In this document: piece by piece, positions 27,474 through 64,000 of the stretch | How positions within the stretch are numbered: the first letter of the stretch is position 1 | How the letters are laid out: every line of letters starts with the position of its first letter | Notes under the pieces: generated by a model | What the model saw: the letters and a program-made list of their open reading frames with translations, nothing else | Databases searched by the model: none | Told to the model about the DNA's origin: nothing | Source of the DNA: a virus | Virus record (IMG/VR): IMGVR_UViG_3300045988_014525 | Reading direction: 5' to 3' (one strand) | Length of the DNA stretch: 64,000 bases | Position numbers and translations under genes: made by a program

Positions 27474-27928
27474 AGATATTACAAAATTCTGATAAGCAAC
27501 TAGTTGTTGCTGCAAAAGATTCTATTATTATATTATCTGATGATAAAACTCTTGTTTCTGTTGACAAAGAGATTGTTTGTGCTGCTGCTGATACTCTTGG
27601 TATTCTTGACGAACTTAAAGAACAAATTCGTTATTATAATGACGAACTTAATAAGATTTATGAAGATGGTCGAAATTTAAATGTTCAACTAGAAACCTAT
27701 AAAGTTGAAATTAGAAATCTTAAAGACAATCTTGATCAAGTAAATAATCTATGTGAAGAAAGAGAGCGTATTATCAATGAGTGTAATCAAAAGATTATTG
27801 ATTATGAAGAGATTATTAAAGACTTAACGAAGGCGAATGAGTATTATATTCGTAAAAAGGATTGTGCCACCCCCGTAAAGGAATGTGATGATAACGATAG
27901 CTCTTATCCACCTACTAAAGTTAAGTAA
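27470..27928 (+). CDS. Coiled-coil protein (152 aa)
   Basis: ORF track; ATG verified. Heptad-like central region. Carries a 21-nt copy of the GC motif near the 3' end. Confidence 0.6.
   Translation: MKILQNSDKQLVVAAKDSIIILSDDKTLVSVDKEIVCAAADTLGILDELKEQIRYYNDELNKIYEDGRNLNVQLETYKVEIRNLKDNLDQVNNLCEERERIINECNQKIIDYEEIIKDLTKANEYYIRKKDCATPVKECDDNDSSYPPTKVK
27867..27887 (+). repeat. GC motif copy (21-mer identical to 18550-18570)
   Basis: ccacccccgtaaaggaatgtg. The gene reads CATPVKEC. Confidence 0.9.
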
Positions 27929-29240: not shown

Positions 29241-29570
29241 ATGAAAACAACTCATAAACAAATGTTGGAGTTTCTATTAATCATTCAAAGATTAGTTAGG
29301 AAACATTGTACTGATCTTTACTTTTTAGTTTCTACTCAATTTAAAGAATCTGAAAAAGTTCTTAGTTATATTAGTGTTTATATTACTATATATAATTTTA
29401 ATAGTGATACTATTAAATATAGTAGATTCTTTTCATTCTATATTGTTAATGATATTGAGGAAAATAATATTGTTCTTGATAATTTAAGGAACTATATTCA
29501 TATGGAAGTAGCAACTATTAATAATCTAAGAGAGAAAGTCAAACGAGATTCTCTTACGGGGGAAGTATAA
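29241..29570 (+). CDS. Hypothetical protein (109 aa)
   Basis: The internal ATG at 29241 (MKTTHKQMLEF...) lies just after the terminator. The upstream 50 codons of the track ORF span that terminator and look non-coding. Confidence 0.45.
   Translation: MKTTHKQMLEFLLIIQRLVRKHCTDLYFLVSTQFKESEKVLSYISVYITIYNFNSDTIKYSRFFSFYIVNDIEENNIVLDNLRNYIHMEVATINNLREKVKRDSLTGEV
29551..29565 (-). repeat. GC motif copy
   Basis: ctcttacgggggaag. The gene reads SLTGEV, then stop. Confidence 0.8.
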
Positions 29571-40524: not shown

Positions 40525-41657
40525 GAAGAGGAATAAAAAATAACTTATCTAAGACTTTTATATTGTCTAAAGTAAGTCAAGAACTAATATTTTCTAAATA
40601 TACTGGTATTCCTATTGAAATAATAAATAAATGTGTAACTGAAAATTCTCTTATATGTTCTCCTTTTAGAAATGATAGACATCCTACTGTTGGTTTTGCT
40701 TATAACGATAAACATAAACTAAAAATTAGAGATTTTGCAGGATATGGAATGTGGGGTGATTGTTTTGATGTTGTTGCGTATGTTCTAAGTTTTACTACTG
40801 GTCGTCAAATCAATGTAAATGTTAAAGCAGATTTTTATTATGTTCTCAAACATATTGCTTATACTTTCCGTAATATTATATATAACGGTGAAGTAGTTGA
40901 AGAAAATGAAGTGCTGCTTAAAGAAACTATTACTCGTATTAAAAATAGTAAAGCTGTTATAGAACTAGTAATTAGAGAATGGAACGAAAATGATAAGAAG
41001 ATATGGTCTAAATGGGGAATATCTTTGCATTGGCTAAATACTCATTTTGTTGTTCCTGTTGATCAAATGTATATTAATAGATTTTGTCAGCCAGAGCCAA
41101 AATATAATTATCGTACTAATGACCCTTGTTATGGTTATATTACTGGTCTTGATAGCAAAGGAATATATAATATTGAGTGTTATTTTCCTTTGCGAGATAG
41201 AACTAAAGGAGACGTTAAGTTCATTACTAATCATAATGGCTTAGTTGGTCTTCTTAATCTTAATAAGCCTAAGTACGATATAATTATTGTTACGAAGTCA
41301 TATAAAGATAATCTTGCGTTAGATAGTTGGCTACACTCTTCTCCTTTACGGGGGAAGTTGTCAGATGCCCTAATAGGAGTTATTAATGTTACTTCTGAAA
41401 GTTATGTTCTTAAACCATTTGAATATGAGTATCTCCAATCTAAACTTAATGATAATGGAATTATTATTAGTTTCTTTGATATGGATTTAACTGGTGTTCG
41501 TGGTGCTCGTCGTCTTAGAAAAGAATATGGTATTATTCCTATTCTCATTCCTAGAATTTATGATGCTAAAGACTTTTCAGAACTAATAGAAAAGTATTCA
41601 AAGGAAACAATTAACAGGTTTATAGAAGAAACCGAAAAACTATTCGATTATGAATAA
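40521..41657 (+). CDS. DnaG-like primase (zinc-binding-like N-domain plus Toprim-like domain; 378 aa)
   Basis: CSPFRNDRHPTVGF...WGDCFDVVAYV parallels DnaG CPFH.EKTPSF...GD.I.F. IIIVTKSYKDNLAL and FFDMDLTGVRGA parallel Toprim vvlvEGymD and DgDeAG, with the E position read as K. Confidence 0.5.
   Translation: MRRGIKNNLSKTFILSKVSQELIFSKYTGIPIEIINKCVTENSLICSPFRNDRHPTVGFAYNDKHKLKIRDFAGYGMWGDCFDVVAYVLSFTTGRQINVNVKADFYYVLKHIAYTFRNIIYNGEVVEENEVLLKETITRIKNSKAVIELVIREWNENDKKIWSKWGISLHWLNTHFVVPVDQMYINRFCQPEPKYNYRTNDPCYGYITGLDSKGIYNIECYFPLRDRTKGDVKFITNHNGLVGLLNLNKPKYDIIIVTKSYKDNLALDSWLHSSPLRGKLSDALIGVINVTSESYVLKPFEYEYLQSKLNDNGIIISFFDMDLTGVRGARRLRKEYGIIPILIPRIYDAKDFSELIEKYSKETINRFIEETEKLFDYE
41341..41357 (-). 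repeat. GC motif copy inside the primase gene
   Basis: ctcctttacgggggaag. The gene reads SPLRGK. Confidence 0.9.
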
Positions 41658-42144: not shown

Positions 42145-42604
42145 TGCTTTCAGTTATAAACTAGATGCTAGCGATATTCGTATGATTGAATATAATGCTA
42201 ATAGTAAAGGTAGAGTTAATTATATGCGAGAACTTCTTGCTGAGATTGATCTACCTAATTATCGTTATCTTCAAACTATTCATTTTGGATATAAGTATAA
42301 TATGGCTGCTCTTGTTTATCTTGGTTATGATAAGAAACTGCTTCAAAAAGTACATGAAGCTAATCTCGAATACGAAATAACTAATCCTCCTATTATATAT
42401 GATAAAACTAAGCCAAAGCCAGTTAAACTTAAACGTACTAAGGGAGAAGGTAAGCGTGTTTGTGCCACCCCCGTAAGGAAAGGAGATAGTGATATTGTTC
42501 GTCTTATAAAGATAGAAGATAACACTGCTCTTAACGTTTCTCGTGAAACTGCTGTTGCTTTGTTTAATCAATTTAATGGTAAATATAGAATTGAAGAATT
42601 ATGA
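42125..42604 (+). CDS. Hypothetical protein (159 aa)
   Basis: ORF track; ATG verified. Overlaps the neighbours at both ends. Confidence 0.55.
   Translation: MALDGRNAFSYKLDASDIRMIEYNANSKGRVNYMRELLAEIDLPNYRYLQTIHFGYKYNMAALVYLGYDKKLLQKVHEANLEYEITNPPIIYDKTKPKPVKLKRTKGEGKRVCATPVRKGDSDIVRLIKIEDNTALNVSRETAVALFNQFNGKYRIEEL
42465..42483 (+). repeat. GC motif copy
   Basis: ccacccccgtaaggaaagg. The gene reads CATPVRKG. Confidence 0.85.
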
Positions 42605-44236: not shown

Positions 44237-44247
44237 CTTGATGTGTG

Positions 44248-44264
44248 CTTACCCTCGTAAAGAC
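44248..44264 (+). repeat. GC motif, degenerate intergenic copy (partner of 44360)
   Basis: cttaccctcgtaaagac. Confidence 0.35.
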
Positions 44265-44359: not shown

Positions 44360-44380
44360 CATTCCTTTACGGGGGAAGTC
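44360..44380 (-). repeat. GC motif copy, intergenic
   Basis: cattcctttacgggggaagtc. Confidence 0.9.
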
Positions 44381-46805: not shown

Positions 46806-47891
46806 ATGAACTTTAATTATAGAAACACTGCTTATAAATATAAGACTGGTGGTATTCCATGGAGAGGAAAGATTGGAATAGATATTTCCGATTGTACTAC
46901 AATGAGTGAAGCTATTCAGAAAGCTAAACTTAATTACACAGTTGCTAAATGTCCTATTGCTGCGCAGATGGAAGCTCTTCCTAATGGAGTTAATCGTGAC
47001 GGTTCTCTTATTCCTAATATCGTTAATGGATATGAATTCGTTACTATTCCTACTGAGTTTGCTACTTATCGTACCGATGCTAACATTCCTCTTGGGAAAG
47101 TTAAAAGTCGCTACGAAGTAGTTCAAAACGAAGTAGCTTTTAACTTCTTCAATGATGCTATTGGAAAAGATGTTCAACTAGATAGAGCTGGATACTTTGG
47201 ATATGGTCAGAAGATATTCTTATCAGCTAAGATAAATCAAGAAATGCAAATCGGTAATATCAAAGATAGTATTGATCATTACTTTGTATTTACTAACAGT
47301 CATGATGGAGGTTCTGCTGTCCAAATGATGATAACGCCTATTCGAGTTGCTTGTATGAATGCTCTACATTCTGCTCGATTAAGTGCTAATATGTATCTAT
47401 CATTTAGACATAATCAAGGCGTTAATGCTAAAATACTAACTGTTCCCGAAATACTTGGTATTGCAGACAAGCGCGTTGAAGAAGAAAAAGAAATGTATGC
47501 TGTTATGTTTAATACTAAAGTATCAGACACAGATGTTAAGAAATATCTATCAATGACTTTCCTTACGGGGGAGGAATTTGAAATTGTAGACGAGAACAAC
47601 TTGTACGAACCATTATTCAAGAAAGACTTCGTAACGTTTGAACAAGTTGGTCTTAGTAAACAAAAACTTGGTATTCTTTGTGACATTAATGAATATTATC
47701 ATTCGGGTATTGCTCAAAGTCAAATTGCCGGAACTGCTTACGGTGCTTACAATGCTGTTACTGGATATTTCAGTAATGTTAAGCAATACAAGAATGAAGA
47801 GATTCGTCTGAAGAATACTGTATTTGAAGGTGATTTCAATATTGGTGTTAAAGCTCTTAATTATGCGCTTGATGCTGTTTGGGATTACTAG
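46806..47891 (+). CDS. DUF932-like phage/plasmid protein (361 aa)
   Basis: FATYRTD...LGKVKSRYEVVQNEVAFNFF...GYFGYGQKIFL...YFVFTNSHDGGSAVQMMITPIRVACMNAL fits the DUF932/TIGR03299 pattern as I recall it. Confidence 0.5.
   Translation: MNFNYRNTAYKYKTGGIPWRGKIGIDISDCTTMSEAIQKAKLNYTVAKCPIAAQMEALPNGVNRDGSLIPNIVNGYEFVTIPTEFATYRTDANIPLGKVKSRYEVVQNEVAFNFFNDAIGKDVQLDRAGYFGYGQKIFLSAKINQEMQIGNIKDSIDHYFVFTNSHDGGSAVQMMITPIRVACMNALHSARLSANMYLSFRHNQGVNAKILTVPEILGIADKRVEEEKEMYAVMFNTKVSDTDVKKYLSMTFLTGEEFEIVDENNLYEPLFKKDFVTFEQVGLSKQKLGILCDINEYYHSGIAQSQIAGTAYGAYNAVTGYFSNVKQYKNEEIRLKNTVFEGDFNIGVKALNYALDAVWDY
47558..47574 (-). repeat. GC motif copy
   Basis: tttccttacgggggagg. The gene reads FLTGEE. Confidence 0.85.
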
Positions 47892-51415: not shown

Positions 51416-51460
51416 TTCAATACAAAATAAGTAATAAACAATTTGTTATACATTATATGT

Positions 51461-51494
51461 AAGGAGTGCTAGAGATAGTACTCCTTATTTTTTT
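51461..51494 (+). terminator. Rho-independent terminator
   Basis: AAGGAGTGCT-agagat-AGTACTCCTT followed by ATTTTTTT. Confidence 0.7.
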
Positions 51495-51567: not shown

Positions 51568-51587
51568 CCACCCCCGTAAAGGAATGG
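51568..51587 (+). repeat. GC motif copy, intergenic, left arm of a hairpin
   Basis: ccacccccgtaaaggaatgg. Confidence 0.9.
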
Positions 51588-51606
51588 AATTAGCTATTAA
51601 CTACTT

Positions 51607-51626
51607 CTCTTACGGGGGTGGCACAA
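51607..51626 (-). repeat. GC motif copy, intergenic, right arm of a hairpin
   Basis: ctcttacgggggtggcacaa. Confidence 0.9.
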
Positions 51627-51795
51627 ATTGTTTATAAAATTATTGATTATAGTTTTGGTATTATCGAATATATTATTATATTTTATAGGAATTCATTTTC
51701 TATTGATTATGTAAGGATTTTATGCAAGTCGTTGATAATTAAGTAGTTACATGACAGCTAATTTCATAGAAAACGGCAAAATCATTCAGTATATT

Positions 51796-51810
51796 ATGCA
51801 AAATTTGCAT
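51796..51810. promoter_or_regulatory. Operator-like palindrome ATGCAAA-A-TTTGCAT
   Basis: 7-bp perfect arms. Lies 32-46 nt upstream of the -7 box. Confidence 0.55.
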
Positions 51811-51817
51811 GATTTTT

Positions 51818-51832
51818 ATGTAAAGTTTGCAT
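51818..51832. promoter_or_regulatory. Second operator-like palindrome ATGTAAA-G-TTTGCAT
   Basis: One arm mismatch. Its centre is 22 bp from the first palindrome. Confidence 0.5.
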
Positions 51833-51841
51833 ATTAATATG

Positions 51842-51849
51842 TATATTTG
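51842..51849 (+). promoter_or_regulatory. Bacteroidota-type -7 box TATATTTG
   Basis: Matches TAnnTTTG. Lies 27 nt upstream of the ATG at 51876. Confidence 0.5.
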
Positions 51850-51875
51850 TGGTAAATATATTTTTAATTTAATGT

Positions 51876-52376
51876 ATGGAAGAAATAAGTCTTATTGGTC
51901 GTCCTGTTCTTACTGTTCCTAATGTAAGAGTTGTTGCTAGTGATACTTTCTTCACTAATAGAGCTAAAGATGGAACTATTGTTGAAGTTGTTGGTAGAAC
52001 ATTTGGAACAGCTGCTAATATTCGTAGAAACGAATTTAATAAAAGAATAGTATATAGTCTTAGTAAAGCTAGTTGTAAAGTCTATTACTATATTTGTTTT
52101 AATCTTAATTATAATTATAATATAATTGAATTAAAGCATTTAAATATAGCAAAAGAAACTTCTTTAAGTATAAGAAGTGTACCAACAGCTATTGAAGAGT
52201 TATTAACAAAAGAAGTTATATTTAAAACATCTCGTACTAGTCTTTATGTAGTAAATCCTAAATGTATTACTAATTGTTCTGTTGCTGATTTTGAGAAAGC
52301 ATATAATGATTTTAGTAATAAATATGATGTTAGATTTAATGATAATAATGAATTAATTTATACTAAGAAGCTATGA
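51876..52376 (+). CDS. Putative winged-helix DNA-binding protein (166 aa)
   Basis: LNIAKETSLSIRSVPTAIEELLTKEVIFKTSRTSLYVVNP looks like a helix-turn-helix plus beta wing. The operator-like palindromes lie upstream. Confidence 0.3.
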   Translation: MEEISLIGRPVLTVPNVRVVASDTFFTNRAKDGTIVEVVGRTFGTAANIRRNEFNKRIVYSLSKASCKVYYYICFNLNYNYNIIELKHLNIAKETSLSIRSVPTAIEELLTKEVIFKTSRTSLYVVNPKCITNCSVADFEKAYNDFSNKYDVRFNDNNELIYTKKL

Positions 52377-52594
52377 GAATATTTGGAACAGATTATATGA
52401 AACTAAAGATAGTTCGTAATAATACTCGTAAAGAAACTATTATTTGTCAGTCTTTAACTGATAGTTCAGTTGATTATGTGTATGAATCTGAATTTAATAA
52501 AAGAAAATGGAGTTTAAACGATGATATAGAAGTATTAGTCGATAATAGAGATATTGAAATAGGAGGTGATCTTTCTTTGTCTTTACAAAGCTAA
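52373..52594 (+). CDS. Hypothetical protein (73 aa)
   Basis: ORF track; ATG verified (ATGA junction). Confidence 0.5.
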   Translation: MRIFGTDYMKLKIVRNNTRKETIICQSLTDSSVDYVYESEFNKRKWSLNDDIEVLVDNRDIEIGGDLSLSLQS

Positions 52595-52648: not shown

Positions 52649-52667
52649 CATGAGTTGTATTGTTATA

Positions 52668-55600
52668 TTAATCTTCTTCGCCAGTAATCTTATTAGCAAT
52701 GAATTGACCAAGACCACTAAACGGAGATTGACGTACTTTATAATAACTATTATTAGCACCTAAACGTTCATGTTTTCTAATTTGATTAACAACAGGAACT
52801 TGTTTAAGTAGATTAACTTTAAGTTTATTCTCTCCCGAATAAGTTCCAGATTGATATAGAAGATCATCAGCGTCACCAGTGAATATATAAGAACAACAAG
52901 CACCTAGAAGTTTAAGATTGTCATTAGCAATACTAAATGCTGCAACAGGTTGACTATATAGTTTCTGTCCTTCATTCATCATACCCCACGGATTATATTG
53001 AATAGTTTCAGACATAAGTCTATCTGCACTATAAAGAACATAATCTGCAATTTGAGTAGATTCATCATCATCGTCTAGCATTAGTTTACCAACTACAAAT
53101 AAAGCAACTGCTTTAGTAATAGCAATCCATTCTCCTAAACATCTACGAAGATTAGCTTTATCATATTCGGGAAGAACATTGTAATAAGTTACAAAGTTTC
53201 CGAAAAAGTCAACGTAGCCTTTAGCAATACCTTGAAGAGTACGAACGGCTTCTAGTTCATTGGAGTTATTTAACTCGTAGTACTTCCTTACGGGGAAAGT
53301 TATAAACTCTGCTAATGATACATAACTACCTTTATTAATAGTTTCACGAGTTTCATTATAAACTCCATCAAAATGTCCAAGACGATAACCAAAACGTTTT
53401 TGGAATCCCGGAACAAGATGTTTATGGAATTGCATTAATAAAGCTCCCCACCAAGATTGTTGAAGAGTGTTAGCACCGATTTTATCATAGATACCATGAA
53501 TATGATGATTAACAGTTAGAACTTTGTTACGGAAGTCAGCAATATCTGCATTAGTAAGAGGACTATCTTCTTTAAGTATTGCAACTCCATTACTTAATGT
53601 AAGTTGACTACGGAAAGTAGGAAGTTTGTCAAACTTAGAACGTTGTTCTTTACTATCTTCTTTATATTGTGCTACAAACTTATCTCGAACTTCTTTAGAT
53701 TGAGTACGTAAGAAGTTAGTTACCATATCTTGTTTGAATCTATTAAACTGTTCTTTAACAGCAAATGATTCTTTAATCTTATTACGATATTCATTATAAG
53801 TATTAACAAGATCGGGATTAACTTCATTAAGAACTTTGATCAAAGAGTTCTCACGAAGATTCTGAGTAAATGTTTCATATGATATAACAGCAGCTTTACC
53901 ATTTTCATCAACAGAAACTCTATGAGAGTTTAACATTGCTAACAAAGTAGTATTCTGCATATAATGTTCACCAGCACTTTGTTGAATAAACAATAAATCT
54001 TCTAGTTTACCAAGAGGATTACTACCTTTACCATAAGTTTCAGTAGCCATATCAGATTCTAGAATATTGAACAATCTAATAATAGCATTAGTTTCGCTAT
54101 TAGTAGTTTCGCTATAAGCATCTGCAAAATAACTACCAATAGACAAAGCATATTCGTTTTCAGCTTTACGGAAATCACTATATTTAAAGTATTGTCCGGC
54201 TGCCATCTCCATCTGAATCTGAGTCTTACCATAAAGAACATTAGCAATACCACCAGTAAGATTTAACATCATAAATTTACTAGATACCATATTACGAAGA
54301 ACACGAGATACTTTAGAACGAGTACCTTCATCTAATTCAAACTCATTGAATATAAGTTTGCGAACTTGACTTTCAAAGTGTTTAGTAATATTAGCATTCT
54401 CATTTTTAAAAGTACGAAGTTCTTCTTTACCTGTAATACGACTAAGAAGTCTATTGCTAGATATTTCGTTATTAGGAGCACGTTTGATGAAATCCATATT
54501 ACGAAGTTGATTGATAGTAATCTTAGCTAGACGAGAAGCATCATTACGAGAATTAAATAGATACATTTGATCTATAAAACTATTAAGTCTTTCGAGAACA
54601 TTAGGATTATTTCTTTCCTTAGTCTCTTCCATTCTTTGTCTATGAAGTTCTCTATTAGTAGCTAATGTTTCTTCTACATACTTAATATATTCTTCTTTAG
54701 TTTCACCTTCTTGTTTATCACGAATAGGTAAAGGTTTAACTTGTGAAAGACTATGTAACATAGGAGCATTACTGAATCTCTTATATAGATTAAATTCTAT
54801 ATCAGATTTATTAGGAGCATCATACCAACCATGACTACGTTTAAAGTCTTGCCAGTAATCTTTAAAACCTTTATCTTCTTTCTCGATTGCTTGATTAGGA
54901 AGATAGCCTTTATTGATATAAGCACGACTACGTTTATCTTTAACTAAACCATCAAGTAAGTTACTTACAGAAGAATATAATTGTTGCTGATAATTATTCA
55001 TTGCATAATACTTATCATTAGTATAACGATCAGTACTAGGTTGAAGTTTATTATCAACAAACTTAGGATTATAATATTTATCTTTTACTTTAGTTTCTAA
55101 CCATTTAGATTTAGGACTATATTCCATATAACGAGCTTCATCCTTAACAACTCGTTGTCTCCATATCATTAATGGTTCATATTCATTAGTAAGAGGATTG
55201 AATACATGATTTTCATTATACCATTTCTCAAAACCTTCTTTACCTAATTGATTAGCTTTAACATACTCGTTTTCATAATAAGGAGTATTACGCCATTCAA
55301 TACGTTCATTTATCCAAGCTTGTGATTCACGATCTTTTTCAACTAAACGATTTTTAGCAGCAAGAAGCATTTGCTCTTCGTGCTTTTTAATATTCTCAAT
55401 TTGAGTAGGATTAAAACGAGTACCATCTATAATACCGTTCTTATCGTACTTACCTCTAGACATAGTTAAGATATATCCAGTAATAGGATTACCACGTTTA
55501 GTTTGCTTATATACATTATTAAGTTCTCGAATAAATTCTGGACTAAGACGATAGTTAGTATTAGCATCTAACCAAGCAACTGCTTCACGATAAGTCTCAG

Positions 55601-58600
55601 AATCACTAGGATATTGTAGATTAGCAATAGCTTGCTTATATCGTTCTTCAAATGCTTGTTTTGGCTTAGTCTCTTTATATTTAGTATTAAGCTGCTTCCT
55701 ACGAGTAAAATAGTTATTAACTGCATTAGCTTCATGATAGTTTTCACGATAATTACCAAGTTCATCAATAGTAGATCTCATATCTTGTATTTCAGAAAGA
55801 ATCTCTTCAAGACGTGCAGCATTCTGAGGAGTAAGAGTACTATAATCATTATCAGTCATAGTACTAAGTATTTCTCCTTCTTCTTGCATTAACTTCTTTA
55901 ATTTAATATAAGTTTTAGGATATTTATCTAATATCTTATTTAAATAAAAGTAATCTTGATACATGTCTTTAACATATTGACGTTCTACATTATCAATTAA
56001 GAACTTTTCAAGAGCATCGGCAGCTTTCTTATATTCAATACCATTACGACCGTTTTCATCTTTAATCTGAGCAAGTTTAAGATTATCTTTTAAAGTTTGC
56101 AAAGTATCTAAGAATGTCTGATTATAAGGAAGCAATAAGTTTCCGTTTTCATCTAATATATCATTAAGAGATACATTAACACCATTCTTATTTGCTTCTT
56201 CAATAATCTTAGATACTTCAGCAGTAAATGCAATCTTCTTATCACGAGCATCTATCTCAGCTTTACGAAGTTCTTGCATCATCTTCTTTAATACTATTTG
56301 CACAATAGGAATATGAGTTTCTTGACTATCGGCTAAATAATACTGGAAGAAATTCTCATCTTCAATAGCAGCAGTAATTTCTAACATTCCTGATTTAATA
56401 CGAGGATCGTTAGTAAGACTACTAATATAAGTATCGAAGTACATTTTAGTACTACGTTTAAGAGTATTATCTAAAGCACTAATACGAGTAAACTTGTCTT
56501 TAAGTTGCTTCAATACTTCATTAGTTCTACGCATTCCATCTATCTCTTCTTGTGATTCAGCAATAGCCATTGCTTCATCTATATTATAAGGTTGAAGAGA
56601 TTCAATTATAGAGTAGTCACTAATGAAACGATTAATATCATCGAGAAACATTTCATAACGAGTACGAAGTGATTCATCTTTCAACATCATATCGAATAAC
56701 TTCTTATTAGTAATACTAATGTTCTCAAGAATCTTTCCATCTTTATTTTCAATACGAACAAAGTTATGAACATCAAACAAGAAATCATCAATACGACGAT
56801 TAGTATAACCATTGATAATTTTAAGAGCTTGCTCTCTCATATTATCGTTAAGTTTACTAGCATTATTAGCTCGAAGATCAAGAGTGTTGAAAGAACGAAA
56901 AGCATCGGTAAGAGCATCTTCTTGAATATTAGCATTATTACGTTCAATAGATTCAATTACTTTAGCTATATAATCATTAATCTCTTTATCGTTATCAATA
57001 AGAGCAGATTCGAGGACATCTTCATTTTGGAATGCTTCTTCTGTTTGAACACGAAGTATATTATTGTTAGAGAACTTATCTAATAACTGATTTTGCTTAA
57101 CAACTTGTTCAAGTACAGATCGTCTAGGATAAACAAGTTTAAGCATTCCATTCTCATTGATTTCTTTATTAACAAGATAATCATGAGTCGTTCTAATACT
57201 TTTAGAAGTTACTCTTCCTAAATTAGTTACTACATAATTAGTTCCTTCTTTATTATAACGAAACATTCCTCCCGAACGTAAACCAGTATTATCTATCACA
57301 GATTGAAGAACAGGAACAAATGCAATACCATTAGTCTTAACATCTGATAGAGTTTGATTAATACTAGTTTTAAGTTGAGTGTAATAAGGCGATTCAGAAT
57401 TATCACTACGTTTAGTTCTAAGTTGAACTTCATTAGCTTCTATCTTAGCATTAGCAATACGTTCACGTTCAGCAACTAAATCTGCATTATTACGGTTAGA
57501 AATAGCAACGCGAATATTCTCGAAGTTGGTATTAGGAACAACAACAGTATAATCTTTTATTCCTGCCTCTTCTAGTTGATTCATAGTATCTATAATAGTT
57601 TTATTATCAGAACTAGAGATAACATATTTATTAGCAGGTGATAAGTTAGATGATTCCTTTACGGGGGAAGTCAAAACTATCGCATTAAGAACATCTGCTA
57701 TTCCTAAACTAGAACCTTCATTAGTTATACTAGGAATAATTAAGAACTTACGAGATTTACTATTAATACCTTTGCTTACTTGTGTAATGGCAGGAATAGA
57801 ATTATAATAAAAATCTAATGATTTATTAATAGCATCAACAGGAAGAAAACGATTATTTTCTAGATTAATACTAACATCAGCAATCTCATTATCTTCTAGC
57901 TTATTAAGAGGAATAAGATCAACAGTCGAACCATGATTAATAACTTTAAACAAAGTAGATTCATTACTATTTTGATACATATTAGTTTTAATATAGCTTT
58001 TAGTAACTGGGTCTTTTTCACTACCAGTAACTATTCTTCTAAGTCTAGCTTCTTTAATACTAATAGTTGCTGCGCCTAATTGATTAAAAGTAATTCTAGG
58101 AGAATTCTTATACTTCTTGTTTTCAAACGAATAAACATCAGGAAGATTAGGATTACTTCTAAAGAATATATCTTTTAATTCATCTATTGCTTGTCCTCTA
58201 TCTAACGTATCATAAGAACTAGTTTCTTCAATTGTATTCTTTATAAGGTTATCAATAGCTTTCTCAGAATCTAATATAATTCCAGTTCCAGTAGACAATC
58301 CATTATTAGAATCAATACCGTTATCTTCTGTATAAAGAAGTTCAGCAGGAATAATTTTACTAACGCTACCTCCTTTAAAAGAATAACCTTCTACTACAAT
58401 ACCATAACGAACTAAATCCATAGCTGTTAATTTAACAAATGGATTATCACTATTCCAAGCATTACGAAACATTTGATATTGAGCTTCGGTAGATATAGTA
58501 CTATCAATAATAGTTATTTGATCTTTACTATTACGACGACCACGATATTCAACATTAAGATTCTTAAATAGATTATTATCAGAAGTAACATTTTGCATAA

Positions 58601-61600: not shown

Positions 61601-64000
61601 GAGTATTACTAATATTATCAATTAGTTTCTTAACAATTTGAAGACCTGCTTTATTCTCACCGTCCATATGTTGAGGAACATCTTGTTGAGTATAAAGATT
61701 AGAATAATAACCAGTCTTATAATGAGTTTGAAGAGATGAACTAAAGCTAGCTAACTCTTCTCCCTTACGGGGGAAGTTACCTTCTGAATCCCATAACTTT
61801 AATACCTTACTAGTAGTAGCTTTTTCGGTAGTAGTAAAATTAGCTTGAGAAATACCATTATCATTCATCATCTTAGCAAGAGCGCCAAGTTCAGTATTAC
61901 CTAAGAATCTAGGAATAAGAACAAATTCTGCATTCTTAATTTGAATAGGATTAACTAATCCATCTTCTATTTCTAGATCATAATAGAAGTTCTTTTGAAC
62001 TTGAATAAACTTACTAATACCTTCTAAAGCAGCACCATCAATAGGTTTAGATTCATCATAAAGAGCTTCAATAACATCTTTATAATTATCATATTCACCA
62101 CGAAGATATATACGACGAACAAATTCATCTAGAGTAATAAATGATTGAGCATCGGTAACTTCACTACGATCTTTAGAGAATTGCTTAAGAATAAACTCAG
62201 CACTTTCTTTAGAAACACCTGCTTCTTTAAGTTGTTTCTTAATATCAGATAAAGTAGAACCGCTACTCTGAACATCTTCAAGAGTAATATATTTAAACGT
62301 ACTAGTAATAGGAATAGTTTTGTTACCTACTTTAATTCCATCGTTAAGAACGAAATCTTTATTATAAAGATTATAAGCAGCATAACTAAGACCGCCTGCT
62401 TGATATTCTTTATTACGTTTAATAGTATCACGAGAATCTTTATAGAATGCTTCGTCTCCAAAGAACATATCATTAAGATTAGCATATTGAATCTCATAAT
62501 TAAGAACCATCTCAGATATGAACTTATTGAATTCTTGATCACTAGCATTCTTATATCTATCAACATATTGTTTCTTATCTCCGTACTGAGCAATACCTTC
62601 ACGAACTCTATATTTAATATAACCATCTATATAATTATAGACTTTAGCAAGAGTATCATTATCAAGAACTATTTCTAGTTCATTGTTTTCATTGCGTCTC
62701 ATAAAAGTCTTGCTTTCACTTCCCCCGTAAAGGAGTGACATCAAGCCATCTTCTCCGAATACACTGTTTAGATTACGAGATTCAGAACTATCATTCTTAT
62801 CAATAAGAAGACTTCTAAATTGAAAGACATTACCAGTAGGTTTACCGTTCTTAAGAATAGTACCTTTCTTATAATGATAATTCAACTTAGCATTACTAGA
62901 ACGAAGATCTTTAAACTCATCTTTAACTACTAGTTTATCTCCAAGAGTAACAATACCATCAACATCATTTGTAACAAACAAATAGTCAATAGCTTGTGCC
63001 ATAGCATTAAGTTCTTTCTGAAACGAGTTTAAGAAAGACTTATAAATAGCATGATTACGATTTACATTACCATTAAGAGAAAGACCTTCAATACTAAGTT
63101 TATAACTATTAAATACAAAAGTCTTAGGAGCATCAGAAGGAGTTTGAGTAAAATACTTAGCACGACGAACTCCTTTGGTTATTTCAAATAAATCTCCTGT
63201 ATTTGCGAATTCATTAAGAGTAACAATATCCCATTCAAGAGCATTAATGTCTTTATAGGACTTAGATTTATTAGTTACTTCATTACGAATACCATTGAAT
63301 AATTCAGAACCGAATTCTCTATAATAAGGAGTAAGTTCGTAACCAGTTTCAGTAATACGAAGGAAACCGGGAATTATTTGACCATTACTAAGTTTTTGTT
63401 CAATAAGAATATTAGTATTACGATAAGCAGGAACATCTAGAAACTTAAGTAGATATTCTTTAAACTCTTCGTTAGCCATAGGATTATCATTATAATCTTT
63501 ATTGTTAACACGTTCAAAGAATCTACCAATATAATTGTTCTTTAGTATATCACTAACAAGATTATTCTCAGCATTAATACTATTGAATTCATTTTCTACA
63601 ATTTGATAATCTTTAAAACGATTAGCAATTCTATCTGCAATCTTATTAGCAGAACCATCAATAGAAGTAAGAGAAGATCTATCAAAATTAACTATCTTAT
63701 AGTCGGGATTAACGCTTTGTTTCTTATATTCTTCTTTATACCAAGCACGTTCAATTGCATTATTACGAGTAATAGTTTCACTAGCATTACTTACAACTTT
63801 AATAAATTCTTCTAAGTCAGAAATAATACTATTGATATTACTAACAGTATCAGCGCTATCCCTAGAGATATAATTAAGAACGCCTTCACGAGTGATACCA
63901 AAATTGTATCTATTAATAATGGCAGACAACTCCTCAGATATCTGTTGTATCTCAGAGTTTTTAATAGATTCATCAGAAACATTTTTAATTGAATTAATTC
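52668..64000 (-). CDS. Giant virion RNA polymerase-containing protein (crAss-type vRNAP), N-terminus beyond the window edge
   Basis: The track ORF 52668..63929 starts at an in-frame TTG. My reading of 63930-64000 (…INSIKNVSDESIKNSEIQQISEEL) shows no stop, so the ORF exceeds 3776 codons. GADFDIDS at 60846-60860 resembles the NADFDGD metal-binding motif of double-psi beta-barrel RNAPs. Confidence 0.75.
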   Translation of the reverse strand, partial: INSIKNVSDESIKNSEIQQISEELSAIINRYNFGITREGVLNYISRDSADTVSNINSIISDLEEFIKVVSNASETITRNNAIERAWYKEEYKKQSVNPDYKIVNFDRSSLTSIDGSANKIADRIANRFKDYQIVENEFNSINAENNLVSDILKNNYIGRFFERVNNKDYNDNPMANEEFKEYLLKFLDVPAYRNTNILIEQKLSNGQIIPGFLRITETGYELTPYYREFGSELFNGIRNEVTNKSKSYKDINALEWDIVTLNEFANTGDLFEITKGVRRAKYFTQTPSDAPKTFVFNSYKLSIEGLSLNGNVNRNHAIYKSFLNSFQKELNAMAQAIDYLFVTNDVDGIVTLGDKLVVKDEFKDLRSSNAKLNYHYKKGTILKNGKPTGNVFQFRSLLIDKNDSSESRNLNSVFGEDGLMSLLYGGSESKTFMRRNENNELEIVLDNDTLAKVYNYIDGYIKYRVREGIAQYGDKKQYVDRYKNASDQEFNKFISEMVLNYEIQYANLNDMFFGDEAFYKDSRDTIKRNKEYQAGGLSYAAYNLYNKDFVLNDGIKVGNKTIPITSTFKYITLEDVQSSGSTLSDIKKQLKEAGVSKESAEFILKQFSKDRSEVTDAQSFITLDEFVRRIYLRGEYDNYKDVIEALYDESKPIDGAALEGISKFIQVQKNFYYDLEIEDGLVNPIQIKNAEFVLIPRFLGNTELGALAKMMNDNGISQANFTTTEKATTSKVLKLWDSEGNFPRKGEELASFSSSLQTHYKTGYYSNLYTQQDVPQHMDGENKAGLQIVKKLIDNISNTPEGQSLIKDFFDCFTANIQESFNDAASRIGVEINNKGEITYDGETVAIDNNKFIALIKDELTRRGLDSNYRKYAEINPETGLPYMPAWSNLVRSKLESIVNSIFTNNITRQTLKGFHASQVVNIGMTELGESLKGKIGDFTQSKFEDKHGYKLGRKLNFHKDGSQIIEILLPKWQVKAYNTYDAEGNLIKEVTLEDLQKAGLDTMIGYRIPTEGKQSIGIMKVVGLLDETQGSTIVVPDDWVLQTGADFDIDSIYGIYHAAYFDRNGKPNKVEYIDGEDEVSTYRRYIGYINSLIDKETRKATSSEFTKEEFKEARKAARETVRKANEEYDKFLTDQVRDLIAETDETWAVLPREVKDNLTITFKSKELKFGERVDAIVSKMNFYESEYANDEYVAKFAQQYRNIQSVINEQREFYQNVKDNAEQLAIDYADETRRARLEQTIQARAEIVGAMSLEEFSQLTVAQQNTRDARNNKIVDTFINIMNLPVSIGENLSSSNFEDIKNAKTTVFGNLSEVYRNINSVIAQNWYRDANMSGARLKAISVNHDNFVSISNKAKTTIEGLYGGFKFTYSYANEAEAKKKLTVLNKRFGKKNVKREDNTITVNHNMLGWSYDNLNIDDRLLTPYSSETTALILDGVKEGGVPNVDLYTFDVYKSIVNCGANYETSIRFVNQPIVTELINRQNANDNVFGEQGFSPITTVRRDLYMAIAKANGRTAKKTDTLDSLKKYIESIGINENEFLDKGMPVEVLKKYSNDSFKNGIDKVENVEDLIAQLKVLNVFEHYKNIADQVNSNMRVITSDKFGAGKSVNEIDQVLKRIRELKDKNFNSGKTSTNPVLTSDYGSYLIGAIYPKTSFRNINEVNSDKSESAYPSLYYQLKYSCIATKMIIQDSGIFKTQTPAFKSLINAFDVNSLKTIQKLESFIINLGQAQSTFVNTNRFMTKSTNEFIPSYNLNLLSSQEDIRARLYGYVDIVGKFDVSDLSEANVEKFMKLSPANKVAIMQNVTSDNNLFKNLNVEYRGRRNSKDQITIIDSTISTEAQYQMFRNAWNSDNPFVKLTAMDLVRYGIVVEGYSFKGGSVSKIIPAELLYTEDNGIDSNNGLSTGTGIILDSEKAIDNLIKNTIEETSSYDTLDRGQAIDELKDIFFRSNPNLPDVYSFENKKYKNSPRITFNQLGAATISIKEARLRRIVTGSEKDPVTKSYIKTNMYQNSNESTLFKVINHGSTVDLIPLNKLEDNEIADVSINLENNRFLPVDAINKSLDFYYNSIPAITQVSKGINSKSRKFLIIPSITNEGSSLGIADVLNAIVLTSPVKESSNLSPANKYVISSSDNKTIIDTMNQLEEAGIKDYTVVVPNTNFENIRVAISNRNNADLVAERERIANAKIEANEVQLRTKRSDNSESPYYTQLKTSINQTLSDVKTNGIAFVPVLQSVIDNTGLRSGGMFRYNKEGTNYVVTNLGRVTSKSIRTTHDYLVNKEINENGMLKLVYPRRSVLEQVVKQNQLLDKFSNNNILRVQTEEAFQNEDVLESALIDNDKEINDYIAKVIESIERNNANIQEDALTDAFRSFNTLDLRANNASKLNDNMREQALKIINGYTNRRIDDFLFDVHNFVRIENKDGKILENISITNKKLFDMMLKDESLRTRYEMFLDDINRFISDYSIIESLQPYNIDEAMAIAESQEEIDGMRRTNEVLKQLKDKFTRISALDNTLKRSTKMYFDTYISSLTNDPRIKSGMLEITAAIEDENFFQYYLADSQETHIPIVQIVLKKMMQELRKAEIDARDKKIAFTAEVSKIIEEANKNGVNVSLNDILDENGNLLLPYNQTFLDTLQTLKDNLKLAQIKDENGRNGIEYKKAADALEKFLIDNVERQYVKDMYQDYFYLNKILDKYPKTYIKLKKLMQEEGEILSTMTDNDYSTLTPQNAARLEEILSEIQDMRSTIDELGNYRENYHEANAVNNYFTRRKQLNTKYKETKPKQAFEERYKQAIANLQYPSDSETYREAVAWLDANTNYRLSPEFIRELNNVYKQTKRGNPITGYILTMSRGKYDKNGIIDGTRFNPTQIENIKKHEEQMLLAAKNRLVEKDRESQAWINERIEWRNTPYYENEYVKANQLGKEGFEKWYNENHVFNPLTNEYEPLMIWRQRVVKDEARYMEYSPKSKWLETKVKDKYYNPKFVDNKLQPSTDRYTNDKYYAMNNYQQQLYSSVSNLLDGLVKDKRSRAYINKGYLPNQAIEKEDKGFKDYWQDFKRSHGWYDAPNKSDIEFNLYKRFSNAPMLHSLSQVKPLPIRDKQEGETKEEYIKYVEETLATNRELHRQRMEETKERNNPNVLERLNSFIDQMYLFNSRNDASRLAKITINQLRNMDFIKRAPNNEISSNRLLSRITGKEELRTFKNENANITKHFESQVRKLIFNEFELDEGTRSKVSRVLRNMVSSKFMMLNLTGGIANVLYGKTQIQMEMAAGQYFKYSDFRKAENEYALSIGSYFADAYSETTNSETNAIIRLFNILESDMATETYGKGSNPLGKLEDLLFIQQSAGEHYMQNTTLLAMLNSHRVSVDENGKAAVISYETFTQNLRENSLIKVLNEVNPDLVNTYNEYRNKIKESFAVKEQFNRFKQDMVTNFLRTQSKEVRDKFVAQYKEDSKEQRSKFDKLPTFRSQLTLSNGVAILKEDSPLTNADIADFRNKVLTVNHHIHGIYDKIGANTLQQSWWGALLMQFHKHLVPGFQKRFGYRLGHFDGVYNETRETINKGSYVSLAEFITFPVRKYYELNNSNELEAVRTLQGIAKGYVDFFGNFVTYYNVLPEYDKANLRRCLGEWIAITKAVALFVVGKLMLDDDDESTQIADYVLYSADRLMSETIQYNPWGMMNEGQKLYSQPVAAFSIANDNLKLLGACCSYIFTGDADDLLYQSGTYSGENKLKVNLLKQVPVVNQIRKHERLGANNSYYKVRQSPFSGLGQFIANKITGEED
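53283..53299 (-). repeat. GC motif, weaker copy (G4)
   Basis: cttccttacggggaaag. The gene reads FPVRK. Confidence 0.4.
57654..57672 (-). repeat. GC motif copy inside the giant gene
   Basis: ttcctttacgggggaagtc. The gene reads TSPVKES. Confidence 0.9.
60846..60860 (-). other. DFDID catalytic-type DxDxD motif of the giant protein
   Basis: Plus strand atcaatatcaaagtc is the reverse complement of GAC TTT GAT ATT GAT. Confidence 0.7.
61760..61776 (-). repeat. GC motif copy inside the giant gene
   Basis: ctcccttacgggggaag. The gene reads NFPRKGE. Confidence 0.85.
62719..62735 (+). repeat. GC motif copy inside the giant gene
   Basis: cttcccccgtaaaggag. The gene reads SLLYGGSE. Confidence 0.9.

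What the first reader, a model, noticed from the sequence alone, without database searches (positions are those of the whole stretch)
51568..51626. Intergenic hairpin built from two GC-motif copies (12-bp perfect GC-rich stem) upstream of the wHTH gene
CCACCCCCGTAA (51568-51579) pairs perfectly with TTACGGGGGTGG (51611-51622) across a loop of about 31 nt. It lies between the terminator of the previous gene (51461-51494) and the operator/promoter region of 51876..52376. No T-run follows, so it is not a classical terminator. Together with 23132/23301 and 44248/44360, every intergenic occurrence of the motif is an inverted pair.
Basis: seen in the sequence. Interest (0 to 1): 0.65.

Follow-up and report, generated by a model that had tools for sequence, protein, structure and literature searches.

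The report
Paired copy of crAss-phage signature motif
The hairpin is real and conserved: it is two inverted copies of a roughly 20-base GC-rich motif that crAssphage-family (Intestiviridae) gut phages carry about 30 times per genome, evenly spaced and alternating in orientation, and no paper I could find describes this motif.

Summary

The window is a crAss-like phage of the family Intestiviridae, close to crAss002. The arms are two copies of the most over-represented word in the window: 25 motif copies, against about 0 in shuffles.

Related phages carry the same motif in lineage-specific versions ("dialects"):
- crAss002 and cr107_1: TTCCCCC[G/A]TARAGGAG
- Rudgehvirus: CCCCTGTARAGGAG
- prototypical crAssphage: ACYCCCCGTRGAGGATGGA

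crAss001 lacks it, and bacterial genomes show no enrichment. There are about 30 copies per genome. Two-thirds lie inside genes, where they arose by point substitutions. Copies are evenly spaced, and 82 of 111 neighbouring copies face opposite ways.

Inverted pairs sit at three conserved intergenic positions. Across 38 distinct orthologues, 89% of stem positions pair, with compensatory changes.

It is not a classical terminator, a MITE, or any Rfam family. My best reading is a double recognition site for a phage-encoded factor, probably acting in replication. An RNA hairpin role and a promoter role remain open.

The parts
51568..51579 (+). Left arm of the hairpin, CCACCCCCGTAA. It is the core of a motif copy whose 20-mer spans 51566-51585.
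51580..51609 (+). 30-nt loop. Its ends add an imperfect 4-pair extension (GGAA/UUCU). The centre varies in close relatives.
51610..51621 (-). Right arm, TTACGGGGGTGG on the + strand. It is a motif copy on the - strand whose 20-mer spans 51604-51623.
51459..51494 (+). Canonical intrinsic terminator (13-pair stem plus T-run) of the upstream gene. It is followed by the conserved box AAACTATACTTGGAT.
51434..51446 (.). Left arm of a 13-nt perfect inverted repeat (ATAAACAATTTGT) that, with 51623-51635, brackets the terminator and the hairpin.
51623..51635 (.). Right arm of the same 13-nt inverted repeat (ACAAATTGTTTAT). It also marks the left edge of the RepL cassette, which is absent in L011 and L022.
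51622..51875 (+). AT-rich spacer (21% GC) holding operator-like repeats at 51794-51810 and 51816-51832 and promoter-like sites.
51876..52376 (+). RepL-family winged-helix gene. It is the last-position repL of the replication block and an accessory cassette.
52373..52594 (+). 73-aa gene that travels with the RepL cassette.
23130..23149 (+). Motif copy, left member of the pair in the divergent junction. It points towards the late genes.
23303..23322 (-). Motif copy, right member of the divergent-junction pair. It points towards the early genes.
44361..44380 (-). Motif copy after the ligase module. It pairs with a degenerate partner.
44243..44262 (+). Degenerate partner copy (CTTACCCTCGTAAAG) of the 44380 copy.
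822..841 (-). Motif copy inside a CDS.
1043..1062 (+). Motif copy inside a CDS.
5284..5303 (+). Motif copy inside a CDS.
7904..7923 (-). Motif copy inside a CDS, at the same position in crAss002, cr107_1 and Rudgehvirus.
8539..8558 (+). Motif copy inside a CDS.
12673..12692 (+). Motif copy inside a CDS.
13400..13419 (-). Motif copy in the portal gene. It arose by point changes; relatives lack it.
18548..18567 (+). Motif copy at the junction upstream of the gene before the large terminase. The position is conserved while the flanks have diverged.
20786..20805 (+). Motif copy at a gene junction, at the same position in crAss002 and cr107_1.
27865..27884 (+). Motif copy near a gene end.
29548..29567 (-). 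Motif copy at a gene junction.
34559..34578 (-). Motif copy in DNA polymerase B. It was made by rare GGG codons where Rudgehvirus has GGT GGT.
35868..35887 (+). Motif copy in a helicase gene (SPVKE here, SPIKE in crAss002).
41340..41359 (-). Motif copy in the primase gene. The orthologous codons carry each lineage's own dialect (CGG Arg here, CAG Gln in Rudgehvirus).
42463..42482 (+). Motif copy inside a CDS.
47557..47576 (-). Motif copy inside a CDS, at the same position in crAss002 and cr107_1.
53282..53301 (-). Weaker motif copy in the giant RNAP gene. Relatives lack it.
57653..57672 (-). Motif copy in the giant RNAP gene, at the same position in relatives.
61759..61778 (-). Motif copy in the giant RNAP gene. 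It is degenerate in relatives.
62717..62736 (+). Motif copy in the giant RNAP gene.

Best explanation
What it is (well supported). The hairpin is this phage's copy of a conserved intergenic palindrome made of two head-to-head copies of the Intestiviridae signature motif. That motif is an asymmetric GC-rich word of about 17-22 nt, kept about once per 3 kb on both strands throughout the genome, with lineage-specific dialects.

How it most likely works (inferred). The motif is the recognition sequence of a phage-encoded, sequence-specific nucleic-acid-binding factor that co-evolves with it. Single copies are maintained by selection at the DNA level, including inside genes. Where two copies are placed in inverted orientation in non-coding DNA they form a double, palindromic site that can extrude as a hairpin or cruciform, and selection keeps the arms complementary.

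Three features of the paired site at 51568-51621 lead me to rank a replication or genome-maintenance role first:
- It lies at the end of the replication-gene block and next to a 21% GC stretch.
- It sits directly upstream of a RepL-type initiator cassette.
- The equivalent pairs in the prototypical crAssphage sit upstream of both repL genes.
On this reading it is a cis-acting replication element: an origin-like or single-strand-initiation-like site where the factor loads on both strands. The dispersed, alternating single copies would then be its strand-specific sites along the genome.

Shown: motif statistics, dialects, conservation of position, compensatory pairing, adjacency to RepL.
Inferred: that a protein binds the motif, and the link to replication.

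The confidence given (0.4) is for the mechanism. That the hairpin is a conserved paired copy of a family-wide signature motif I hold at about 0.9.
For: - Enrichment and copy numbers.
- Dialects: crAss002 and cr107_1, Rudgehvirus, Carjivirus communis with 31 copies. None in crAss001.
- Bacterial genomes: only scattered single hits of the 15-mer.
- Copies inside genes arise by substitution, use rare codons, and change in step with the dialect. In primase the codons are CCT TTA CGG GGG here and CCT CTA CAG GGG in Rudgehvirus. In DNA polymerase they are GGG GGG here and GGT GGT in Rudgehvirus.
- Both orientations occur relative to genes.
- Even spacing: CV 0.46-0.68 against 0.83-0.87 for random placement.
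- Alternating orientation: 82 of 111 neighbours (P = 2.5e-7), and 31 of 31 neighbours closer than 1.5 kb.
- The hairpin is orthologous in 38 distinct relatives: 89.3% of stem positions pair, 6 pairs changed on both sides, and 0 of 500 shuffles reach the covariation score. L299 and L300 keep a 15-21 bp stem with different outer sequence and carry tandem TTGTAGAG repeats next to it.
- The three pair positions are conserved in Rudgehvirus and C. communis, each in its own dialect.
- The downstream gene belongs to Pfam RepL, PF05732 (E = 4.5e-6, above the curated cut-off). It matches C. communis RepL gp43.
- C. communis pairs at 95745/95875 and 28077/28183 lie upstream of its two repL genes. A predicted origin lies directly upstream of the first repL (PMC10983915).
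- GC skew turns at about 22-23 kb and about 52-53 kb, where two of the pairs lie.
- Tandem 12-nt repeat arrays surround the 23-kb pair.
Against: - No binding protein has been identified.
- The RepL cassette is absent from crAss002, cr107_1, L011 and L022, which still keep the hairpin. RepL therefore cannot be the universal partner.
- The window has no recognisable first-position repL.
- The GC-skew turns coincide with switches in gene orientation, so they do not prove an origin or a terminus.
- A fork-trap or leading/lagging-strand bias of motif orientation is not seen. Orientation alternates instead.
- Intergenic single copies are oriented relative to the downstream gene (about 16 to 2 by my tally). 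This points to transcription or RNA rather than replication.
- Mismatches in the stem are mostly G.U on the early-sense strand (30, against about 4 A.C), which fits an RNA role. However, both strands of the window copy fold equally well.
- In Rudgehvirus the two arms are swapped.
Confidence: 0.4

Rival explanations
1. RNA-level hairpin. Read-through or dedicated transcripts of the early (+) strand fold into a long GC-rich stem. The stem acts as a 3'-end protector, a second barrier to read-through into the convergent giant RNAP gene, or an RNase III processing site. By analogy, inverted pairs of DNA uptake sequences double as terminators in Neisseria and Haemophilus (from my own knowledge).
For: - The position directly downstream of a canonical terminator, at the end of the early block, is conserved.
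- Compensatory changes occur with G.U intermediates, and wobble pairs outnumber A.C mismatches 30 to about 4 on the early-sense strand.
- RNAalifold recovers the stem on the + strand only.
- Intergenic single copies are oriented with the G-rich strand as the sense strand.
- In C. communis the palindrome is followed by a second hairpin plus T-run.
Against: - No U-tract follows the stem.
- Two-thirds of motif copies are in coding DNA in either orientation, which an RNA role does not explain.
- Both strands of the window copy fold equally well (-27.6 and -31.6 kcal/mol).
- The arms are swapped in Rudgehvirus.
- The excess of G.U runs in the direction expected from the local G>C skew.
- A second conserved pair in crAss002 and cr107_1 keeps an A.C mismatch on the sense strand.
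- No Rfam family matches.
Confidence: 0.25
2. Transcription control element. The motif is a promoter or activator/operator site for phage-specific transcription. One version is that it serves the virion-packaged RNA polymerase, whose promoters are unknown in crAss-like phages. Inverted pairs would then be divergent promoters or palindromic operators.
For: - Intergenic and junction copies point towards the downstream gene (about 16 to 2).
- At the divergent junction each member of the pair points at its own gene block, in the window, Rudgehvirus and C. communis.
- The motif is long and asymmetric with lineage dialects, as phage RNAP promoters are.
- A subset of intergenic copies carries a GC mini-hairpin with a 3-4 nt loop, reminiscent of phage N4 virion-RNAP hairpin promoters (from my own knowledge).
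- Early promoters of the crAss-like virion RNAP showed no detectable common motif in phi14:2, so they are an open question (10.1101/2020.03.07.982082).
Against: - Copies inside genes are about 50:50 sense and antisense.
- No host-type -7 box (TAnnTTTG) lies at a fixed distance.
- Within unidirectional blocks, one member of each tight pair points against the genes.
- The window copies have no mini-hairpin (0 of 25).
- Even spacing and alternating orientation are not properties of promoters.
Confidence: 0.15
3. Selfish or passive repeat: a MITE-like or GC-cluster-like mobile element, or a recombination scar marking module boundaries, with no function for the phage.
For: - GC-rich palindromes in an AT-rich genome.
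- The RepL cassette's presence or absence breaks exactly at the right edge of the hairpin in L011 and L022.
- A 13-nt perfect inverted repeat brackets the terminator and the hairpin.
Against: - Copies in genes arise by point substitutions without any length change.
- Positions are conserved across genera while the dialect changes.
- Even spacing and alternating orientation.
- There are no target-site duplications and no transposase.
- The motif is not shared with bacterial genomes.
Confidence: 0.05
4. The region encodes a small protein. A 30-codon ORF (51560-51652, MEICYDHPRKGMELAINYFSYGGGTNCL) runs through the hairpin.
For: The ORF is open in the window, L005 and L006. Two indels in L005 restore the reading frame.
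Against: - The C-terminus differs in L011 and L022.
- The crAss002 lineage has an unrelated peptide and no conserved start.
- Both 'conserved' peptide stretches are simply the motif read in two orientations.
Confidence: 0.03

Closest known systems
DNA uptake sequences (Neisseria DUS, Haemophilus USS)
   Same: - Strongly over-represented word of about 10-20 nt.
- Found in both orientations, in coding and non-coding DNA, and created by point substitutions.
- More evenly spaced than random.
- Lineage 'dialects'.
- Depleted in a variable region.
- Intergenic copies often occur as inverted pairs that form hairpins.
   Different: - The carrier is a lytic phage, and no uptake machinery is involved.
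- Orientation alternates strictly.
- The motif is not shared with the bacterial host.
- The recognising factor is unknown.
Chi sites and other strand-specific genome signals (KOPS, Ter)
   Same: Over-represented, strand-specific words tolerated inside genes. An arrangement that gives every DNA end a correctly oriented site within a few kb would suit a circularly permuted genome.
   Different: - The motif is 17-22 nt, not 5-8 nt.
- The dialects differ between phages of closely related hosts.
- The 15-mer is not enriched in bacterial genomes.
- There is no orientation bias by replication arm.
Plasmid and phage origins next to their initiator gene (inverted repeat plus AT-rich DNA plus rep gene; paired single-strand initiation sites of RSF1010; P1 repL/oriL)
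   Same: A GC-rich palindrome beside AT-rich DNA and directly upstream of a RepL-family gene. Tandem repeats lie next to it in L299 and L300. In C. communis, pairs lie upstream of both repL genes.
   Different: The palindrome is kept in relatives that have no RepL. The same motif is scattered about 30 times through the genome. No initiation has been demonstrated.
Phage N4 virion-RNAP hairpin promoters
   Same: Both phage groups inject a virion RNA polymerase. Both have conserved sequence plus a small GC hairpin with a 3-nt loop (here only in a subset of intergenic copies in relatives).
   Different: This hairpin has a 12-bp stem and a 30-nt loop. Copies are not confined to early genes. The polymerases are unrelated. 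The window copies lack the mini-hairpin.
Intrinsic terminators and REP/BIME or MITE repeats
   Same: A GC-rich inverted repeat in intergenic DNA downstream of a gene.
   Different: There is no T-run and the loop is large. Most motif copies lie inside genes. Copies arise by substitution, not insertion.

Membership tests
Intrinsic (Rho-independent) terminator | GC-rich stem with a short loop (3-8 nt), followed immediately by a U/T-run | tested here: not met
   The loop is 30 nt and no T-run follows. The terminator scan finds only 51459-51494.
Intrinsic (Rho-independent) terminator | Sits at the 3' end of a transcription unit | tested here: inconclusive
   It lies about 75 nt downstream of a canonical terminator, at the end of the early block.
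Genome-wide signature word (DUS/USS-like) | Strong over-representation, in both orientations, in coding and non-coding DNA | tested here: met
Genome-wide signature word (DUS/USS-like) | Lineage-specific dialects at conserved positions, arising by point substitution | tested here: met
Genome-wide signature word (DUS/USS-like) | Intergenic inverted pairs that form hairpins | tested here: met
Genome-wide signature word (DUS/USS-like) | A specific receptor or machine that recognises the word | not testable with these tools
   No candidate protein was identified.
Chi site | Short word (5-8 nt) recognised by the host RecBCD/AddAB and enriched in the host genome | tested here: not met
   The conserved span is 17-22 nt. 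The 15-mer gives only scattered single hits in bacterial genomes. The 8-mer core was not tested in host genomes.
Chi site | Orientation biased with the direction of replication | tested here: not met
   Orientation alternates along the genome.
MITE / REP-BIME | Discrete inserted unit with terminal repeats and target duplication, intergenic, with presence/absence polymorphism | tested here: not met
   About two-thirds of copies are in coding regions. Orthologous sites differ by substitutions, with no indel.
Replication origin with adjacent initiator | Adjacent rep gene | tested here: met
   RepL PF05732 lies 255 nt downstream. C. communis pairs lie upstream of both repL genes.
Replication origin with adjacent initiator | AT-rich unwinding region and iterons | tested here: inconclusive
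   The flanks are 21-23% GC. Tandem TTGTAGAG repeats occur in L299 and L300, but the window has no clear iterons.
Replication origin with adjacent initiator | Initiation of DNA synthesis at the site | not testable with these tools
   There is only a published prediction for C. communis near its first repL (PMC10983915).
N4-type virion-RNAP hairpin promoter | 5-7 bp stem with a 3-nt loop and conserved flanks, upstream of early genes only | tested here: not met
   The stem is 12 bp and the loop 30 nt. None of the 25 window copies has a GC mini-hairpin, against 4 of 31 in C. communis. Copies occur all over the genome.
Known RNA families (Rfam 15) | A match at the gathering score | tested here: not met
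   No matches in the window. Only sub-threshold generic-hairpin matches appear.
RepL family (for the neighbouring gene) | Pfam PF05732 above the curated cut-off | tested here: met
   26.7 bits against a cut-off of 20.3, E = 4.5e-6. Homologues carry the same Pfam assignment. The protein shows 29% identity to C. communis RepL gp43.

The most novel reading that the evidence does not exclude
The motif is a phage 'self-DNA code'. On this reading it is the recognition sequence of an Intestiviridae-encoded machine, for example the injected virion RNA polymerase, the replication priming or loading apparatus, or an end-protection system. It is written about every 3 kb on alternating strands of the genome, including in the prototypical crAssphage. 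The inverted pairs next to repL genes are the master sites, acting as origins or as hairpin promoters. This kind of genome-wide, orientation-alternating recognition system has not been described for any phage.
Probability: 0.3. Interest if true: 0.9.

Novelty: new variant of a known kind. Interest (0 to 1): 0.72.

Why it matters
Intestiviridae include the most abundant virus of the human gut, yet their replication origins, early promoters and mode of persistence are still unsettled.

A 17-22 nt word is kept about 30 times per genome, evenly spaced and alternating in strand. It is imposed even on protein-coding sequence, and it evolves in lineage-specific dialects. This is a strong sign of an unrecognised cis-acting system.

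The motif gives concrete sites to test:
- pull-downs with motif oligonucleotides;
- mapping of RNA ends, DNA ends and nicks at about 30 defined positions per genome;
- origin mapping at three conserved palindromes, two of them beside the repL genes that underpin the proposed phage-plasmid lifestyle.

The dialects may also be a simple marker for classifying crAss-like contigs.

Tried and rejected
- Classical terminator: rejected. There is no T-run and the loop is 30 nt.
- Known RNA families and tRNAs: none found.
- Host-derived repeat or host Chi: the 15-mer gives only scattered single hits across unrelated bacteria. The 8-mer core could not be tested in host genomes.
- Mobile element or insertion: rejected. 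Codon-level alignments show substitutions, not insertions.
- Simple promoter: copies inside genes are unoriented, and no host -7 box lies at a fixed distance.
- Fork trap or leading/lagging-strand bias: orientation alternates instead.
- RepL as the universal binding partner: rejected. There is no RepL homologue in crAss002, cr107_1 or Rudgehvirus, and none at the first position of the block in the window.
- Small hairpin within a single motif copy: only weak, and dependent on dialect. I judged this by eye and did not pursue it.
- Small ORF across the hairpin: not conserved between lineages.
- Neighbouring small proteins: Pfam and PHROGs searches were uninformative.
- Solved structures related to the RepL-like protein: none by sequence search.
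- Literature: searches by topic and by the motif sequences themselves found no description. A MITE survey that mentions Crassvirales found no link to them.
Full report
**1. Observation**

The window reads GACCACCCCCGTAAAGGAATGGAATTAGCTATTAACTACTTCTCTTACGGGGGTGGCAC. They form 12 perfect pairs around a 30-nt loop.

As RNA, 51550-51640 folds at -30.2 kcal/mol (z = -4.6). As DNA it folds at -14.6 kcal/mol (z = -4.2). None of 200 shuffles reaches either value. Both strands fold about equally well (-27.6 and -31.6 kcal/mol for the 71-nt core).

A canonical terminator, with a 13-pair stem and a T-run, lies at 51459-51494. It is the only terminator-like site in 51300-52000. No T-run follows the motif hairpin.

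**2. What genome this is**

Megablast places the window next to Bacteroides phage crAss002 and uncultured phage cr107_1 (Crassvirales, Intestiviridae, Jahgtovirus) at about 76-80% identity.

The gene layout fits:
- late genes on the - strand, 2.3-22.6 kb;
- replication/early genes on the + strand, 24-52.6 kb;
- a 3753-aa DFDID-motif RNA polymerase gene on the - strand from 52.7 kb.

The hairpin therefore lies near the end of the replication block, about 1 kb before the convergent junction.

**3. The arms are copies of a genome-wide motif**

- CCCCCGTA is the most enriched 8-mer in the window, with 22 copies against 0.09 expected.
- A position-weight matrix built from the copies finds 25 sites in the window, 31 in crAss002 and 34 in cr107_1. 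Shuffled genomes give 0-1.
- The consensus is YTTCCCCC[G/A]TA[A/G]AGGAG. The window also has a CCACCCCCGTAAAGGAATG subtype.
- The exact 15-mer occurs in more than 120 IMG/VR loci, mostly crAss-sized contigs of 90-97 kb.
- In bacterial genomes the 15-mer gives only single hits scattered over unrelated phyla.

**4. Dialects**

- Rudgehvirus jaberico (Intestiviridae, Crudevirinae) has almost no CCCCCGTA. Its top 8-mer is CCCCTGTA (21 exact copies, 28 PWM sites), with consensus ATTGnTGTAAnnnCCCCTGTA[A/G]AGGAG.
- The prototypical crAssphage, Carjivirus communis BK010471, has 31 copies of TAnAC[C/T]CCCCGT[A/G]GAGGATGGA.
- crAss001 (Steigviridae) has nothing comparable.

The motif is therefore a family-level feature that changes by lineage.

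**5. Copies inside genes are selected at the nucleotide level**

About two-thirds of copies lie in coding regions, in either orientation and in different reading frames.

Many are at orthologous positions in the window, crAss002 and cr107_1. There the motif is better conserved than its flanks.

Codon alignments show how they arise:
- Primase: CCT TTA CGG GGG (PLRG) in the window and crAss002, against CCT CTA CAG GGG (PLQG) in Rudgehvirus. The site is kept, and the dialect switch even changes an amino acid.
- DNA polymerase: ACG GGG GGG in the window, where Rudgehvirus has AAT GGT GGT. Rare codons were recruited to build the motif.
- Copies present in only one lineage differ from the orthologous sequence by substitutions, with no length change.

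This rules out a mobile insertion.

**6. Arrangement along the genome**

Motif loci are more evenly spaced than random in all five genomes. The CV of gaps is 0.46-0.68, against 0.83-0.87 in simulations treated the same way (P from 0.0001 to 0.07).

The only large gap, 10 kb in crAss002 and cr107_1, is the variable tail-fibre region.

Orientation alternates:
- 82 of 111 neighbouring pairs face opposite ways (binomial P = 2.5e-7; 26 of 30 in crAss002).
- All 31 neighbours closer than 1.5 kb are inverted.

Relative to transcription, coding copies are about half sense and half antisense.

I tallied intergenic and junction single copies from the site lists and annotation tables. About 16 to 2 have the G-rich strand (..TACGGGGG..) on the sense strand of the downstream gene.

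**7. Inverted pairs at three conserved intergenic places**

(i) The divergent junction between late and early genes:
- window 23130/23322;
- Rudgehvirus 85895/86031;
- C. communis 95745/95875.
Each member points at its own gene block.

(ii) After the ligase (or Gam) module:
- window 44380 with a degenerate partner;
- Rudgehvirus 62991/63093;
- C. communis 22901/22938.

(iii) The end of the early block:
- window 51566/51623;
- crAss002 64735/64792;
- cr107_1 69926/69983;
- Rudgehvirus 55443/55516, with the arms in the opposite order;
- C. communis 28077/28183.

Sources.

The architecture around (iii) is also conserved: gene end, then terminator, then a CTTGGA box, then the palindrome.

**8. Selection for pairing in the target hairpin**

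A gapped pattern search retrieved the orthologous element from 38 IMG/VR loci. That gave 38 distinct sequences after alignment with the window.

In the crAss002 lineage the arms are TCCCCCATAAAGGAGTGG and CCACTCCTTTATGGGGGA (15-19 bp). They are flanked by inverted GC-rich repeats (GCTCGC twice on one side, GCGAGC or GCTAGC twice on the other).

On a 20-pair structure:
- 89.3% of cells pair, against 40-58% when the partner column is slid.
- 6 pairs show changes on both sides.
- 0 of 500 shuffles reach the covariation score.

The informative pairs are:
- A:U in 31 sequences, G:C in 4, G.U in 2;
- U:A in 33, A:U in 5;
- G:C in 29, A:U in 4, G.U in 3;
- U:A in 19, U.G in 11, C:G in 2.

Most of the double changes separate the window lineage from the rest, so the number of independent events is small.

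Two further lineages, found through RepL homologues (L299 and L300), add independent support. Their stems are 15-21 bp, built on ACTTCCCCCGTA arms, with a different complementary outer extension (CTCGGTGTTA/TAACACCGAG). Tandem TTGTAGAG repeats lie next to them.

**9. RNA or DNA?**

For RNA:
- Non-Watson-Crick cells are mostly G.U on the early-sense strand (30, against about 4 A.C).
- RNAalifold recovers the stem on that strand only.

Against RNA:
- The local G>C skew would bias mutations the same way.
- Both strands of the window copy fold equally well.
- The arms are swapped in Rudgehvirus.
- Another conserved pair in crAss002 and cr107_1 keeps an A.C mismatch on the sense strand.

I treat this question as open.

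**10. The neighbouring gene**

The gene at 51876-52376 matches Pfam RepL (PF05732) above the curated cut-off (26.7 bits, E = 4.5e-6). Its homologues carry the same assignment. By tblastn it matches the annotated RepL gp43 of C. communis.

Schmidtke et al. (PMC10983915) report two repL genes in C. communis, at the first and last positions of the replication block. They also report a predicted origin directly upstream of the first one.

The C. communis motif pairs at 95745/95875 and 28077/28183 lie upstream of exactly these two genes.

The RepL cassette is accessory, however:
- It is absent from crAss002, cr107_1, L011 and L022, which keep the hairpin.
- In L011 and L022 the sequence diverges immediately after the right arm.
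- The window has no detectable first-position repL.

**11. Interpretation**

Well supported: the hairpin is a conserved, paired copy of a lineage-evolving signature motif, and its arms are kept complementary.

Less certain: the function. Four features of the motif imply a phage-encoded recognising factor acting on DNA:
- its length and asymmetry;
- its dialects;
- its imposition on coding sequence;
- its absence from bacterial genomes.

Several further observations make a cis-acting replication or genome-maintenance site my first choice (confidence about 0.4):
- even spacing with alternating strands suggests that each strand needs sites at regular intervals;
- the paired sites sit next to repL genes, AT-rich DNA and repeat arrays, and at the two GC-skew turns.

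The RNA-hairpin reading (0.25) and the transcription-control reading (0.15) each explain some features better. The RNA reading fits the G.U tolerance. The transcription reading fits the orientation of intergenic copies, and also the GC mini-hairpins in a subset of relatives (4 of 31 copies in C. communis, against 0.8% of random 34-mers). Neither explains the unoriented coding copies.

The alternation could also partly reflect avoidance of deletions between close direct repeats.

**12. Comparison and novelty**

The closest analogues in behaviour are DNA uptake sequences and Chi-type signals (comparison from my own knowledge). In local anatomy the closest is an origin next to its rep gene. The element fails the defining tests for a terminator, a MITE or REP repeat, Chi, an N4-type promoter, and every Rfam family.

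Searches of the paper library by topic and by the motif strings found no description. That library does not cover subscription-only papers.

I rate the finding a new variant of a known kind (a genome-wide recognition word). If a dedicated phage machine is found, it could prove categorically new.

Noticed in passing
window 22600-23980: A 1.4-kb non-coding stretch at the divergent junction holds many 12-nt tandem arrays: TTACTACTCAAG x3.7 between the two motif copies, GATAAAGTTAAT x3.8 and AGTAATAGAGTT x3. At about 22760-22860 there is an alternating purine-pyrimidine GC-rich block (GTGCGCATACGTGCGCATG...GTACGCACACGTGTACGTGCGTAC). It looks like an origin, packaging or regulatory region.
   Followed up: partly
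window 51434-51446 and 51623-51635: A 13-nt perfect inverted repeat (ATAAACAATTTGT / ACAAATTGTTTAT) brackets the terminator and the hairpin. Its right arm is the first sequence of the RepL cassette, which is missing in L011 and L022.
   Followed up: partly
window 51622-52660, compared with L011, L022, L002 (cr107_1) and L001 (crAss002): The slot downstream of the hairpin is a variable cassette site. It holds RepL plus a 73-aa gene in the window and L005-L009, a 71-aa gene (gp34) in crAss002, and nothing in cr107_1, L011 or L022.
   Followed up: partly
crAss002 (L003) 18451-28702 and cr107_1 21391-31441: The only 10-kb stretch free of the motif covers the large variable tail-fibre/'transferase' genes (gp19-gp20). 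This is what would be expected if recently exchanged DNA has not yet acquired the motif.
   Followed up: no
C. communis L301 28040-28075 and 28190-28215, L302 about 43640-43664 and 45880-45910; crAss002 L001 3925-3945: Some intergenic copies carry a GC mini-hairpin with a 3-4 nt loop (GAGTGC-TAC-GCACTC, GGCAC-TAC-GTGCC, GAGC-TTC-GCTC, GCTAGCC-GTTA-GGCTAGC). It is preceded by a CCCGCT box. The stems differ between copies while the pairing is kept.
   Followed up: partly
Rudgehvirus (L295/L296) motif copies; crAss002 motif copies: A second conserved box, ATTGCTGTAA-like, accompanies the motif. It lies about 3 nt upstream of the core in Rudgehvirus but about 4 nt downstream of AGGAG in crAss002.
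   Followed up: no
L300 2050-2115 and L299 2040-2070: Tandem TTGTAGAG / GTGTAGAG repeats (4-6 copies) lie immediately upstream of the hairpin in two RepL-bearing relatives. They resemble the 3' half of the motif (TGTAGAGG).
   Followed up: no
window 44830-45165: A small ORF just after the second motif pair gives weak NUMOD4 and HNH_3 matches below the Pfam cut-offs. It may be a remnant or a small homing endonuclease.
   Followed up: no
window 52668-63929: A single 3753-aa ORF carries the DFDID motif typical of crAss-like virion RNA polymerases. A homologue in L299 (4366 aa) has a Pfam ART-PolyVal hit.
   Followed up: no
L301 28245-28292 (C. communis): A canonical hairpin plus T-run terminator follows the motif palindrome. 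The palindrome therefore sits between two terminators and could be a short separate transcription unit.
   Followed up: no
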